A stretch of DNA of 62,147 bases, filler included, from Chlamydiales bacterium (GTDB lineage: Bacteria; Chlamydiota; Chlamydiia; Chlamydiales; JACRBE01), in NCBI GenBank assembly GCA_016213235.1. It is 4 parts of 4 records of this genome, joined end to end, with 100 filler letters (N's around TTAATTAATTAA, not from the genome) between each part and the next. Parts side by side here need not be neighbours in the genome. Positions count along the whole stretch, not along the records: positions 56,099 to 62,147 come from JACRBE010000004.1; 3 more parts are not named here. One strand, written 5' to 3'. Numbering within the stretch: position 1 is the first letter of the stretch; each line of letters starts with the position of its first letter. Below are positions 57,001 to 62,147 of the stretch, piece by piece. Position numbers: made by a program.

Positions 57001-60000
57001 ACGATTGACGAGACGCTGTTTAGGGATCATTTTGAATACATGACCGCTTATACAAAGGGACCTCATCATGCAAGCATGCTTGCAAAACAGGCAGTAGAAG
57101 ATAGTATAGATATCGTTGTTGCAGTCGGTGGCGATGGCACAGTAAATGAAATAGCAAAAAGCCTGATTGGATCTACTACACTACTTGGTATTATACCCAC
57201 AGGATCTGGTAATGGTCTTGCCAGGTATCTTAATATCCCCCTTAATCTAAAAAAAGCTATTAATTGCATTAATAAACTACAAACAAAGAAAATCGATACC
57301 GTTAAAATCAACCATGAAAATTTCATTAGTGTGGCCGGTGTTGGATTTGATGCAACAGTAGGTATGGAGTTTTCTAATTTTGGTAAAAGAGGACTTTTGT
57401 CCTATTTGAAAATAATAGTGCAACAACTCCCCTTTTATGAACCAAAAGAATACCAATTGATGATAGATGGAAGGCTCTATAAGCAAAAAGCATTTTTAAT
57501 CTGCTTTGCCAACTCGGGACAATATGGCAATAATATCTATATTGCTCCGGGAGCGAAAATCGATGATGGTTTTTTAGATATTTTAATTTTTAAAACATTT
57601 CCTCCCCATGCAACACCAAAATTACTCATAGATTTGATCAATAGGCAATTAGAGCACTCCAAATATATTGAAGTGATCAAATGCAAGGATGTCGTTTTTC
57701 AACAGCCTATAACACAATTTCATATAGATGGTGAACCTCTGGTTCTGAAAGAAGAGGTGAACATTCAAATTCAACCACAATCACTAGAAATTATCTGTGA
57801 TTATCGCAATAGTTTTTCTGCATGGTTTTTAAAATCACCAACTAGCTGATGTAATCGATCATCAAGCGCTTTATCCTTCAAGTTGCCTTTTTCATCAAAG
57901 GCGCCATAAGCCTCTGGCAGGGAAAACATGGAAGGAAATACAAAAGCCCCACAACATTCCAGCGGAACCCTTGTTGCGAGCAGTCCCCTATATCCCCCTA
58001 CTTTTGCAGGGGAGGCTGATAGCAATAAAACAGGCTTATTTTTCATAGGATAGGGATTTATTCTGGAAAGCCAGTCGATGAAGTTTTTAAGAGTCCCCGG
58101 GATAGAAAAATTATATTCTGGGCTGCAGATCACCCAAGCATCTGCTGCAGTTATTTTTTTTGCATACTCTTTGACATCTTGAGGTATACCAATTGCTTCA
58201 ATATCTCCATCATACATAGGGATATTCATCGATTCAAAAGGGATATTATCTACTTTAATGCCCATCTTCTCTATTTTCTTTTGTGCAATCAAAAGAAGTC
58301 TCTTATTTACAGACTCTTTTCTCATTGCTGCTGCAAGTAATAACCAGTTCATAAATCCTCTTATCTAAAAATGTCAGCTTAAAAAGGCAGAGAATTAATT
58401 ACCATTAAAATACAGAGGATTATCTTTGATCAATCAAACCACCCATGTAGGAAGCCTGATACACAGATTTGTCAGACAAGTGGATCATTTCTTTTCCTGA
58501 AAACCTCTCTAATTTTCCTTGCCAGGCATTTGTATACGCATATGGATCTTGCTGATAATTTTCAGGGCCTCTAAAGGGATATTCTCCTGGCATGTTTAAC
58601 AAAGCATTTCTTAATACTTTGTATATTAGTTTCGTATCTATATCTTGGGATATAAATCCATAATAGACCATCATCCAGATTGGCTCATTTTTATAAAAAA
58701 CAACGAGTCTTCCTCCATATGATTCACCGCCAAAGAAGTTATCATTTGAATTTATGTTTGTCATAAATGCCATCAAAGGCGACATGCTGTTATCTTTATT
58801 TTTTATATAACACAAACAAAATCAACAATATACATATAATTAATATTGATGTAACTTTACAGCAAAATCATATTAATGTAACTTTACAGTAAAAACAGCA
58901 AGAGTTATATAATGGTATGTTACAAGTGTCTTAAGCCTCTACAGGGCGAGCTAATTCATGGTATTCATAAAGAATGTTTTATGGAATGGTTCGGTGTAAG
59001 TGAGTCCGAAATTCAATTTAGTTTAACATTAAAAACTGCAGGAAATAGCAATGACCCCTTCTCTCATCTGAATTCCAGTTTCTTTCATGGTAAATTTAAG
59101 AAATATTCAGCTCGTTTGGGAAAATCTGGTTATATTATTAAAGTTCGTCAAGAACCTTTTGATGATCTTCCGGCCATGGAGTTTTTATGTAATCAAATCG
59201 CCAGATTTTTACAACTAAACACTTCCGATTTTTATCTCATTAAATTAGAAGGGAAAATAGATGCTTTTGTTTCCAAAAATTTTATGGAGGAACATAGGGA
59301 TGCGAACCTCATTCATCTATACCGATATATGGAAGAAAGACCTTTTAATTTAGAAAATATTATGGGTGTGATTATCCAGCAAACAAATAATTATTTGGAT
59401 GTTGAACGTTTTATTCATATTTGTTTATTTGATATTCTTATAGGAAATCATGATAGACATGGGAGAAATTTAGCCTTTATTCAAACGCCAAAAAGTAAAT
59501 TCCTTGCCCCCTTTTACGATAATCCTTCTTATTTGGGTATTGAAGAGGAGTGGTTATTAAGAGCGATTCTTGAACCTTGTGGGAAAATTCACACTTCATC
59601 ATCCAGTGAACCAAAGATGAAAGACTATGCCAACGAATTTTGTAAATTAGGTTATTATTCTATTGTGATTGAATTTGCAGAGCTCATTGATATAAATCGG
59701 ATTGAGCAATTTATCCTTCAAAGCTTTATTTCTCCTGCACGAAAACAAGCTTTTTTAACGCTCATTAGAAGACGATTTCATGAACTTGAAAATGTATTGG
59801 AGCTTTATGAAACACTCAAAAAATAAAATTTTAGCTGTGTTAATATATTTAGAAAGGAGAAAAAGTCGAAAATTCGTAGGAACATTAACTTATAGCGAAA
59901 AACAACAGGTGTATATCTTCCAATATGATAAAAACTATCTTCACTCAAAACTAATCCCTTTAGGGCCTGATCTTCCTTTAAATCGAAAAAACTTTGTATC

Positions 60001-62147
60001 TAAAGACCTTTTTGAATCTTTTGTTGATCGACTCCCTTCTCGCGATAATCCATCCTACAAAGATTATTGTTTAGCAGAGAATATTGATATAAATGAACAA
60101 GATCCATTCATCTTGCTAACTACGATTGGAAAAAGAGGACCTTCTTCTTTTGTTTTTGAAGCAGATTACATGAAAACCTTCGGTGCTGAAGACGTTAAGC
60201 GATTTCGATCTGAATTGAATTTGACAATAAAAGAATTCTCTCTTGGTTTTATGGTGGCAGAAAAAACACTTATTTCAATTGAAGGAGGGAAAAGTGCGGG
60301 ACGAGATGTTATGAAACGTCTGGAATTATATGTACGATTCCCATCTGTAGCCTTATTTGAATTTCAAAGAAACAGTGCACAAATTCATATAGAAAAAAAA
60401 CGTTTTGTTGAAAACATACTGAATCACAAGATTAATGAAAACACGATCTGAAAAAGTTCCTCTGAATTGCTAATACCTATGTTGAGGAATTCTCGCGTGT
60501 TTTGTTATGTATAAGGCTCCCAAAATAGTTATACAAAGCAAAAAGGGATAAATAAAAGGAGCCATTACAAGATGTGTCTGTTGATAAATAAATAAAGAGA
60601 GTCCAATAGCCGGGTGTCCTATACACTGGGCCCCTAGCGCTTTACCAAACGCCATCGTAAGATAGGTATTATTTCTCCCTGCAATCTCTTTTACATAAGA
60701 TTGAAAGGGAGCTGCAAAGGCAGTTCCGATAGTCACAAATATCAATCTTATTAAAAAGAGGCTAAGGAGTGTGGGTGTTTGCAGTAGAAAAAAACCAAGT
60801 GGTGTCAACAGAATAAAACTCAGTAGGGAGGCATATATTAGCCTTTCTTGTCCTATTTTTACACCAATCCATCCAAAAACAGGTAACAAGATAAGATCAA
60901 GGACCATGAGAAGCAAGCAAATGCTTAGCATAGATAAATAAGTCGTTTCCATTACAAGAGGGAAATAAATATTCATTACGCTAGTGATAATATCATAGTT
61001 AGCATATGCAAAACCAGTGAGGAGTGTAATTAAAAGCACCTCTTTTTTATATGTTTTAATGAATTGTAAAAAAGAGATCTTTTCTTGTTGTACATTTATA
61101 TAAGACTGTTTTTTCTTCCTGAAAAAGAAAGCTATAAGGCCACATATTGCTCCAAATAAGAACAACAGGCGCCAATAGTTTTCTATCATATCAAAATAGA
61201 GAAGGATCACAACAAATGCAGTGGCTAAAATAGACCCCATTATTCCGCTCATTTCATAGATACTGCTCCACCACTCTTTTTTACTTGGATTGGTGTTTTC
61301 TAAAATTAACAAAGGAGCTCCTGTTGTTTCTCCTGCATAAAAAAATGAGAGGAAACTTCTAAACAAAACAATTAAAACAGGCGCTGCTATTCCGATGGTT
61401 GCATAGGAGGGTATAAGTCCGATTGCAGCGCTGCACATAGAGGTTCCAATAAGAGAGATATAAAGAGCTATTTCCTTACCATAGCGATTACTGATTGATC
61501 CAATGACATAAGCGCCGAGAGGTCTTGCAAACCATCCAAAGGGTGTAAAGAGGATAATGCAGCCCGTGAGATAGGAGTGCTTGGAGAAAAAGATAGCTGA
61601 AATAAAAGGGACGAGCAGCCCATATAAGGCTTTGTCAAAATGCTCTAAAATATTTCCGATACAGATTAAAAAAATCTGTTTCTTTGTTATGAGTGGCACG
61701 CTCCCTCCGCTAGTATTATCTAGATCAGGTCATAAGGGTTAAATCAATTGATCTTTTCAGCTAAAATATAGCACCCCTGGCGACACAAGCAAGTTTACAG
61801 GAATATCCTGATTATCGACAATGGCAGAAATTTCCGAGAAAACAGGATCGTAAAATATTAAAATATTTTATACTTGCCTTTTACAAGAAAAATACCAAAA
61901 CGGCTTATGAGTATATCTAATCATATCAAACGATTGTTTTTTGGATTTTCTCTTACTGCACCTTGGGAAGAGCTCTCTCCTCCTGCCAGGTTATTGAAGG
62001 AAGAGGACCGTCATTTGACCATTTATTTTCTTGGAAATGTTCCTCTTTTTTCTTTGGAAGGGCTACCTTTCCCCTCTTTTTCGATAGGAGCTGTTGGTAT
62101 CTTTGATCATTTGCTTTTTTTGCCACCCCATTATCCTAATGTCGTTA

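What a model noticed while it worked through the whole genome (the two positions that open the first line are those of the whole stretch)
58912..60451. HipA-type kinase followed by a fused HipS-HipB antitoxin (new hip module layout)
A short HipA-family kinase (g00302, 304 aa, core kinase domain behind a CxxC...HxxxC N-terminus, no N-subdomain 1) is followed, with a 20-nt overlap, by g00303 (214 aa), in which a HipS-like domain (the missing N-subdomain 1 of HipA) is fused to a C-terminal helix-turn-helix domain. I read the pair as a two-gene toxin-antitoxin module in which one protein unites the roles that HipS (kinase neutraliser) and HipB (DNA-binding repressor) play separately in the three-gene hipBST system, in reversed gene order. 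New would be an eleventh gene organisation of Hip kinases, with about 130 family members in Chlamydiota, Verrucomicrobiota and Bdellovibrionota.
Evidence so far: Pfam: g00302 HipA_C 67-207 (4.9e-18); g00303 Couple_hipA 21-112 (5.2e-11) and weak HTH_19 130-173 (E 0.027). Homologue search with g00303: 128 proteins at E<=1e-5 of 249 candidates, nearly all 205-235 aa; of the 120 listed 114 carry PF13657 and 20 carry HTH_3 PF01381 (18 together with PF13657), which confirms the C-terminal HTH. Alignment of 20: invariant G111-P-S-S-F115, L52-G-P54, D74-R75. predict_complex (ESMFold2) of g00302 with g00303: score 0.72 (runs 0.58, 0.72, 0.73), best of 3 controls 0.00; mark reached by 116 of 157 solved complexes and 2 of 215 mismatched pairs; partner pLDDT at least 83, runs agree in at least 50% of contacts; interface residues of g00303 all lie in the HipS-lik [...]
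(Added by a program. Inside this text positions count along the whole contig: they may not be those of the stretch shown here. "Call 12" and the like, gene names such as g00115 and contig names such as C1 are that model's own, and its searches are not shown. The text may have been shortened before it was handed on; [...] marks where a part breaks off. The agent that wrote the report below was given it as the finding of a first reader that could run no searches.)

Follow-up and report, generated by a model that had tools for sequence, protein, structure and literature searches.

The report
Kinase toxin with modular, self-repressing antitoxin
This is a previously undescribed layout of a bacterial kinase toxin and its antidote: the antidote also looks built to switch the genes off, and in many relatives it carries an extra anti-virus protein on its tail, so the toxin may back up immune sensors.

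Summary
The pair is real: a short Hip kinase with intact catalytic motifs (58912-59826) overlaps a gene joining a HipS-like domain to an Xre helix-turn-helix (59807-60451). The kinase lies directly upstream in 151 of 159 loci with room, and no separate HTH gene was found in 121. The layout is not among the ten of the 2021 survey, whose Table S1 lacks both family motifs.

Corrections: the motif is CxxC...HxxC. Kinase and HipS-like domain both group with hipIN (HipS-HIRAN), so it reads best as hipIN-like with an HTH in place of HIRAN, not a reversed hipBST. My complex score was weak (0.58).

Two additions. Tandem 18-bp palindromes at a 27-bp period precede the kinase (49 of 71 loci against 1 of 303 controls) and vary with the recognition helix, which supports autorepression. 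The antitoxin C-terminus is a cargo slot: 45 of 99 full-length representatives carry fused domains, including whole Avs8-like STAND receptors, restriction-nuclease-like folds, HEPN and SIR2. The window's copy has no cargo and is an insertion absent from a congener. Toxicity, neutralisation and defence are untested.

The parts
58912..59826 (+). Short Hip-family Ser/Thr kinase, 304 aa, putative toxin; lacks HipA N-subdomain 1
   Evidence: Pfam HipA_C; best PDB sequence hit HipT(Lp), E 2e-4; K64, K77, E90, D181, H183, N186, D203 invariant in 68 of 68 family kinases
58918..58977 (+). N-terminal C3xxC6...H19xxC22 motif, probable zinc site (inferred); also seen in a subgroup of hipBST HipT kinases
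   Evidence: invariant in 68 of 68; aligns with HipT of a Hymenobacter hipBST locus; seen in further HipT
59452..59469 (+). Catalytic loop DRHGRN, of the D-R-H type of hipIN/hipJS kinases
   Evidence: HipI and HipJ rows of Table S1 read DRHH/QxN
59807..60451 (+). Putative antitoxin-repressor, 214 aa: HipS-like domain, Xre HTH, three C-terminal helices; 20-nt overlap with the kinase
59828..60169 (+). HipS-like domain (about residues 8-121), HipN type: R[LI]PxxxNPxY, not LLPEG(W)
   Evidence: Couple_hipA; PDC-M03B E 9.5e-11; tree and alignment
60185..60292 (+). Xre/Cro helix-turn-helix (about residues 127-162), recognition helix 152-159
   Evidence: model helices 141-147 and 152-159; HigA2/MqsA fold hits; covariation with the operator
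58847..58864 (.). Operator-like pseudo-palindrome O1 (TG-N14-CA, core TGTAANNTTACA at 58850-58861)
   Evidence: 2 exact core matches in the window, 0.14 expected; family-wide pattern
58874..58891 (.). Operator-like pseudo-palindrome O2, 27 bp after O1 (core at 58877-58888)
   Evidence: the only tandem pair among 9 genome-wide core matches
58846..58874 (+). Possible weak promoter (TTGATG, 17 nt, CATATT) overlapping O1; 8 of 12 consensus, below the scan threshold
   Evidence: positions; the scan listed no + strand promoter; inference only
58353..60469 (.). Inserted segment (DUF5680 gene on the - strand plus the module) between an MFS gene and an FMN reductase gene
   Evidence: congener G168 has MFS, 29 bp, FMN reductase, then the DAG-kinase gene, with no insert; module GC 32.7% against genome 36.4%

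Best explanation
A mobile, autoregulated type II toxin-antitoxin operon of the Hip kinase superfamily in a new layout, sister to hipIN. The kinase is an active Ser/Thr kinase that would arrest growth when free (motifs shown; toxicity and target inferred; an aminoacyl-tRNA synthetase is the family's usual target). The downstream protein neutralises it by docking its HipS-like domain as the missing N-subdomain 1 (inferred from fold and constant linkage). Its Xre HTH binds, probably as a dimer, tandem 18-bp palindromes at a 27-bp period over the promoter and start region and represses the operon (operators shown statistically; binding inferred). Its C-terminus tolerates fusions and has repeatedly picked up defence-type domains (shown), which thereby come under the same promoter. 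The window's copy is the cargo-free form, inserted among housekeeping genes.
For: Linkage: kinase adjacent upstream in 151 of 159 distinct loci with at least 1 kb of room, intact in 132; genes overlap in 120 of 131; no HTH gene among 48 small upstream ORFs in 121 loci. Kinase motifs invariant in 68 of 68. HipS fold (VIA Z 13.5 over 101 residues for a relative). Operators: score 26 or more in 49 of 71 loci against 1 of 303 real upstream regions; best period 27 bp in 62 of 71 against 46 of 303; E152 and K153 of the recognition helix rank first and second of 211 columns for half-site position 5, E152 first for position 3. Tandem palindromic operators are typical of hipBA (PMC4150777). Patchy range: 43 of 400 genomes in the own phylum (own genome included), 0 of 4 in the own family, 31 of 401 in a Bdellovibrionota sample; empty site in a congener. 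Orphan antitoxins and broken kinases occur (8 and 19 of 159), as expected for decaying TA loci; I did not search for orphan kinases. Complex prediction 0.58, best of 3 controls 0.00; the mark was reached by 116 of 157 solved and 2 of 215 mismatched pairs, but at 0.60 or under by only 18 solved and both mismatches; runs agree in at least 48% of contacts, partner pLDDT at least 82; it may reflect memory of HipS-HipT structures.
Against: No experiment. The Glu63-Gly64-Trp65 element by which E. coli HipS blocks HipT (PMC10627512) is absent. The position of HipT(Lp) Ser54 (PMC9325769) is Phe in 66 of 68, with S/T one residue earlier in 67 of 68 (register by my reading of the loop), so neutralisation and autophosphorylation cannot be copied from hipBST. 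The window's HTH is below Pfam cut-off. Covariation is confounded by kinship, and for half-site position 4 E152 ranked only seventh. 15 of 71 loci did not beat all 20 shuffles. No + strand promoter passed the scan.
Confidence: 0.8

Rival explanations
1. Anti-phage system in which the antitoxin is the trigger. Phage infection, or engagement or destruction of the fused sensor or nuclease, frees the kinase, so the kinase backs up or guards the fused immune protein. This extends the best explanation rather than excluding it.
For: Fused cargo is defence-like: 20 Avs8/PD-lambda-4A-like rows with the Mrr motif in 19, Walker A in 17 and Walker B in 15 by regular expression (some rows are the same protein); PDC-S39/DUF4209, HEPN, SIR2; a 15-member cluster with a restriction-nuclease-like fold (CdiA-CT Z 8.0, rmsd 3.6, 131 aligned; McrC, PfoI, XisH-type hits Z 5.6-6.0). 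20 cargo clusters, 28 short/long changes on the tree, 15 forced by strong branches. 7 of 9 STAND-fusion loci keep an intact adjacent kinase, and the operators persist. In one Bdellovibrionales family 10 of 13 genomes with this STAND have it fused. The sister layout hipIN matches PADLOC candidate PDC-M03. Avs8A senses major capsid protein.
Against: Most loci are cargo-free (161 of 183), including the window's. Unfused downstream genes are mostly housekeeping or unknown: 3 of 52 hit PADLOC, one strongly. The Avs8-like cargo has its own nuclease and would not need the kinase. One fusion has only a kinase remnant (L376) and one a kinase with an insertion (L373). One viral contig hit, without a kinase; none in the phage collection.
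Confidence: 0.35
2. Fusions are passive. The operon inserts upstream of other genes, stop loss makes read-through fusions, and the only effect is to lend an autoregulated promoter and addiction to the cargo; kinase and cargo are not functionally coupled.
For: All fusions start right after the last helix; cargo is gained and lost often within one clade of 31 (19 STAND, 3 PDC-S39, 3 other, 6 short); one cargo is ankyrin repeats and several are unidentified.
Against: Unfused neighbours are housekeeping-like while identified cargo is mostly nuclease, NADase or STAND, which points to selection; the STAND fusion persists across genomes whose cargo is 51-77% identical to the query.
Confidence: 0.45
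3. A rearranged hipBST: HipT moved to the front and HipS fused to HipB.
For: The kinase shares the CxxC...HxxC N-terminus with some HipT; best PDB hits are HipT and HipS; the AU test does not reject family plus hipBST (p 0.06).
Against: Kinase tree: family plus hipIN against hipBST plus hipBA, 99/99, 100% of 200 bootstrap trees (SH-aLRT 99). HipS-domain tree 98 with HipN, plus a shared insertion. DRH catalytic loop; gene order as in hipIN. HipB of hipBST scores 5-32 bits with the family HTH profile, like hipBA HipB and other Xre proteins. Long branches weaken both readings.
Confidence: 0.2
4. A non-toxic split kinase: the HipS-like domain is an activating or structural subunit, and the pair is a DNA-tethered signalling kinase.
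For: In HipA the same domain is part of the active enzyme; the HipS inhibitory Trp is missing; the pair is tightly co-conserved.
Against: Patchy range, insertion at an empty site, autoregulation signature and loss of the kinase while the partner stays intact all fit a TA module.
Confidence: 0.1

Closest known systems
hipIN (HipI kinase + HipN = HipS-like-HIRAN; PADLOC candidate PDC-M03), Gerdes et al. 2021, PMC8262856
   Same: Gene order kinase then partner, overlapping; short kinase without N-subdomain 1; DRH catalytic loop; HipN-type HipS-like domain; sister position in both trees.
   Different: Xre HTH plus three helices instead of HIRAN; tandem operators; CxxC...HxxC N-terminus on the kinase; variable C-terminal cargo.
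hipJS (HipJ + stand-alone HipS-like)
   Same: Order and HipS-like type.
   Different: hipJS partners are 109-114 aa with no HTH; 2 cases, both Thermotogae.
hipBST (E. coli O127, L. pneumophila)
   Same: Split HipA principle; HipS fold; Cys/His N-terminus shared with some HipT; an HTH regulator.
   Different: Two genes, reversed order, no separate HipB, no EG(W) motif, Phe at the autophosphorylated Ser position.
hipBA
   Same: Xre-type repressor with tandem palindromic operators (E. coli spacers 10, 21 and 10 bp; PMC4150777).
   Different: Here the N-subdomain-1 homologue sits on the repressor, not on the kinase; 18-bp sites with a 9-bp spacer.
Avs8 / PD-lambda-4A (cargo of relatives only)
   Same: Mrr nuclease, STAND NTPase and long C-terminal region; PADLOC E down to 1e-67.
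   Different: Fused behind a HipS-HTH module and downstream of a Hip kinase; ligand unknown.

Membership tests
Hip kinase superfamily | Four core motifs (Gly-rich loop, Lys/Glu pair, catalytic loop, Mg-binding Asp) | tested here: met
   G60, K64, K77, E90, D181, H183, N186, D203 invariant in 68 of 68; HipA_C above cut-off
Hip kinase superfamily | Kinase activity and toxicity | not testable with these tools
   needs an experiment
hipBST | Three genes in the order hipB-hipS-hipT | tested here: not met
   order is kinase then HipS-HTH in 151 of 159; no upstream HTH gene in 121 loci
hipBST | HipS with the (L)PEG(W) motif | tested here: not met
   22 of 22 family rows read R[LI]PxxxNPxY; 24 of 25 HipS references read PEG
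hipBST | Kinase within the HipT clade | tested here: inconclusive
   best tree places it with hipIN (99/99), but p-AU 0.06 for the alternative
hipIN / PDC-M03 | [quoted passage not shown] | tested here: met
hipIN / PDC-M03 | C-terminal HIRAN domain on the partner | tested here: not met
   no HIRAN in 79 members; PDC-M03B matches stop near residue 112; the region is an all-helical HTH; 4 of 4 tested HipN references do hit HIRAN
hipJS | Stand-alone HipS of about 110 aa without HTH | tested here: not met
   214 aa with an HTH
Type II toxin-antitoxin module | Two overlapping genes, patchy or mobile, operator repeats upstream | tested here: met
Type II toxin-antitoxin module | Antitoxin binds and neutralises the toxin | tested here: inconclusive
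   complex prediction 0.58, best control 0.00, weak support; neutralisation untested
Avs8 (cargo in relatives) | Mrr nuclease plus STAND Walker motifs | tested here: met
   19, 17 and 15 of 20 rows by regular expression; PADLOC hits
Avs8 (cargo in relatives) | Activation by major capsid protein | not testable with these tools
   shown only for E. coli Avs8A

The most novel reading that the evidence does not exclude
The HipS-HTH protein is a plug-in adaptor that wires a kinase toxin to interchangeable immune modules. In its fused forms (a whole NLR-like Avs8 receptor, restriction-type nucleases, HEPN, SIR2) one polypeptide is at once antitoxin, repressor and immune sensor or effector. Ligand-driven oligomerisation of the cargo, or its destruction by a phage, would release the kinase and derepress the operon: a toxin-antitoxin/NLR hybrid with a guard function, found mainly in predatory and intracellular bacteria.
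Probability: 0.27. Interest if true: 0.85.

Novelty: new variant of a known kind. Interest (0 to 1): 0.64.

Why it matters
It adds a layout to the ten known for Hip kinases and supplies the missing combination: HipS-like neutraliser plus HTH on one chain. The 2021 survey proposed, without test, that the domain behind HipS-like in HipN is a phage sensor. This family shows that the region behind the HipS-like domain is an exchangeable slot, up to a complete NLR-like receptor, which makes the link between Hip kinases and phage defence directly testable. The operator series that changes with the recognition helix is a natural set for studying Xre specificity. By record titles the family is concentrated in chlamydiae, Bdellovibrionota and protist-associated Proteobacteria, groups whose defence and dormancy genes are poorly known.

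Tried and rejected
First genome-contig scan with the single protein: 63 pattern matches, none confirmed. Plasmid and phage collections: only distant Hip kinases in 6 plasmids, none of this family; none in phages. IMG/VR: 1 locus, no kinase. No RNA holder listed, which is no evidence on expression. Defence-island context for short forms: not supported by the directly downstream gene (3 of 52 PADLOC hits); wider neighbourhoods were not scanned. A single family-wide operator sequence: rejected, the window's core occurs with at most one mismatch in only 13 of 73. The 'longer' word-index search found only 4 long forms of 694 candidates; the full HMMER scan was needed. The ESM Atlas named neither of two cargo types (SLFN_AlbA_2-associated at 0.82 is a lead only). 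No solved structure for the STAND cargo by sequence. Earlier findings of this scan: nothing shown. The careful mixture-model kinase tree did not finish; the quick tree and a 40-row LG+G4 tree without five long-branch rows, randomly subsampled, were used. References for HipG, HipM, HipJ, HipL, HipF, HipE and HipH were not in the trees, so the exact place within clade XI is open. One HipN row (L251) was a mis-picked ORF and fell elsewhere.
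Full report
Observation. The window joins several contigs; the finding lies on a 6,049-bp contig starting at 56099. 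ORF 58912-59826 (304 aa) hits HipA_C. The next gene, read from ATG 59807 (214 aa, 20-nt overlap), hits Couple_hipA and weakly HTH_19. Both are single-copy in the genome. The AlphaFold2 model of the second protein (pLDDT 93) shows a strand-rich N-domain whose best structural matches are HipS chains, then a four-helix Xre HTH like HigA2 or MqsA, then three helices. HTH_3 matches 52 of 79 relatives at E<=0.01. The closest named relatives are chlamydial MAGs (66-75% identity), so I infer a Chlamydiota host.

Kinase. In 68 distinct full-length family kinases, C3, C6, H19, C22, G60, K64, K77, E90, D181, R182, H183, N186 and D203 are invariant. The N-terminal motif is CxxC...HxxC, probably a zinc site (inference), and it also occurs in a subgroup of hipBST HipT kinases. 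Aligned on the Gly-rich loop of HipT(Lp), 53-MSVQGVQKK-61, the autophosphorylated Ser54 corresponds to F57 (66 of 68), while position 56 is S or T in 67 of 68.

Linkage and range. Of 183 distinct antitoxin cores in fetched loci (the window's own included), 159 had 1 kb of upstream room; 151 have the kinase adjacent, 132 intact. The genes overlap in 120 of 131. None of 48 small ORFs upstream of the kinase in 121 loci matched either HTH profile, so the operon has two genes. It occurs in 43 of 400 genomes of the own phylum, 0 of 4 of the own family, and 31 of 401 of a Bdellovibrionota sample. The 80 best of 112 GTDB loci carry titles including Chlamydiae, Bdellovibrionales, Bacteriovoracaceae, Legionellaceae, Coxiellaceae, Berkiella, Francisellaceae, Holosporales and Omnitrophota. 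In congener G168 the flanking MFS and FMN reductase genes are 29 bp apart; here 2.1 kb with the module and a DUF5680 gene lies between them.

TGTAACTTTACA occurs at 58850 and 58877, the only two matches of TGTAANNTTACA in the window (0.14 expected) and the only tandem pair among 9 in the genome. Relatives have other sequences but the same build: 18-bp TG-N14-CA pseudo-palindromes, two or three in a row. A combined palindrome-and-repeat score reached 26 in 49 of 71 loci against 1 of 303 real upstream regions of other genes. The best period was 27 bp in 62 of 71 against 46 of 303, and 56 of 71 beat all 20 shuffles. Among the 67 of 127 loci with strong operators, E152 and K153 at the start of the recognition helix gave the highest corrected mutual information with half-site position 5, and E152 with position 3; for position 4 E152 ranked seventh. 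Kinship confounds this, so it is suggestive. E. coli and Shewanella hipBA also use tandem palindromes (PMC4150777).

Descent. I defined reference kinases by gene layout in fetched loci: 26 hipBST, 21 hipBA and 10 hipIN-type; 4 of 4 tested partners of the last group hit HIRAN. The family is one clade and sides with hipIN against hipBST plus hipBA (SH-aLRT 99 on 79 rows; 99/99 on 40 rows without long branches), though the AU test does not reject family plus hipBST (p 0.06). The HipS-like domain also groups with HipN (98) and shares its R[LI]Pxxx[NR] insertion where HipS has PEG(W); Trp65 is the E. coli inhibitory residue. The HTH is generic Xre. The best reading is a hipIN-like module with an HTH where HipN has HIRAN, and a HipT-like N-terminus on the kinase.

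A scan without length filter gave 190 clusters at E<=0.001, 150 listed; 99 hold the whole module and 45 of these continue for 60 to 1,470 residues. Among loci the share is 22 of 183, so clustering at 50% identity inflates it. Extensions fall into 20 clusters, with 28 short/long changes on a 268-row FastTree tree, 15 forced by strong branches. The largest cluster (20 rows, some duplicates) matches PD-lambda-4A (E down to 1e-67), which is Avs8A, an Mrr nuclease-STAND receptor for major capsid protein; its motifs are kept. It is confined to a clade of 31 antitoxins in which STAND, PDC-S39/DUF4209, other cargo and short forms alternate. In that Bdellovibrionales family 22 of 109 genomes have the module and 10 of 13 with this STAND have it fused; 7 of 9 such loci keep an intact adjacent kinase, and their operators persist. 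The second cluster (15 rows) folds like a restriction-type nuclease (Z 8.0 with CdiA-CT, several weaker hits of that fold; borderline by the tool's own note). Others hit HEPN, SIR2 and ankyrin repeats; many are unidentified. In contrast, separate genes directly downstream of short forms are rarely defence-like (3 of 52 PADLOC hits).

Mechanism. Shown: intact kinase motifs, HipS-like fold, HTH, constant linkage, operator arrays, insertion at an empty site, recurrent fusions. Inferred: toxicity, neutralisation, operator binding, zinc binding, any role in defence. The complex prediction gave 0.58 with best of 3 controls 0.00. That mark was reached by 116 of 157 solved and 2 of 215 mismatched pairs, but at 0.60 or under by only 18 solved and both mismatches; runs agree in at least 48% of contacts, partner pLDDT at least 82; likeness to solved HipS-HipT may drive it. 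I put 0.8 on an autoregulated type II TA module, about 0.35 on a defence role of the family, and 0.27 on functional coupling of kinase and cargo.

Novelty. PMC8262856: I read parts 1-4 of 7 of the text (introduction to methods), Table S2 whole, and Table S1 by term search only; its supplementary figures were not seen. It lists ten layouts, none with HipS-like fused to an HTH. Passages only: PMC10627512, PMC10653801, PMC9325769, PMC12803255, PMC4150777, 10.1101/2025.07.02.662641, 10.64898/2026.04.11.717937 (the last had nothing relevant). Ten library searches (listings and abstract starts) showed no description of this layout or of Hip antitoxin-STAND fusions. Subscription journals, bioRxiv supplements, TADB and current DefenseFinder were not covered and may hold it. 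The 434-repressor analogy for helix positions and the reading of DUF4209 as HEPN-like are recalled, not from a call.

Verdict. A real, apparently undescribed variant of Hip toxin-antitoxin modules, more interesting as a family than as this copy: interest 0.64.

Noticed in passing
window 58420-58815 (-): DUF5680 gene divergent from the kinase; absent from the congener's locus, so part of the same insert, but not seen in any other fetched locus.
   Followed up: partly
L381 (G1222:C1:1954500-1966500): Decaying locus: frameshifted kinase, short antitoxin, Avs8-like remnant with stops, then a second antitoxin fragment.
   Followed up: partly
L373:2400-3608: Kinase with a low-complexity insertion of about 100 residues (weak Pfam PT-repeat hit), about 310 nt before a 1,839-aa STAND fusion.
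   Followed up: no
L098 and L042: A canonical hipBST locus (L098) and a hipBA locus (L042) lie within 2-3 kb of the module.
   Followed up: no
L103: Record titled Chlamydia trachomatis MAG carries the module with the same lengths and similar identities as a Parachlamydiales MAG (L107), while 0 of 29 genomes of the small-genome family f4 have it; the label is probably wrong (inference).
   Followed up: no
L005, L006, L007, L034 upstream regions: Operators lie about 150-160 nt before the kinase's first Cys, further than in other clades; these kinase ORFs may have longer N-termini.
   Followed up: no
P0229, P0124: P0229 joins kinase and antitoxin sequence in one frame (possibly a frameshift artefact); P0124 appears to have a second HTH.
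   Followed up: no
L347 (IMG/VR contig): Antitoxin without kinase, next to a resolvase, on a viral contig.
   Followed up: partly
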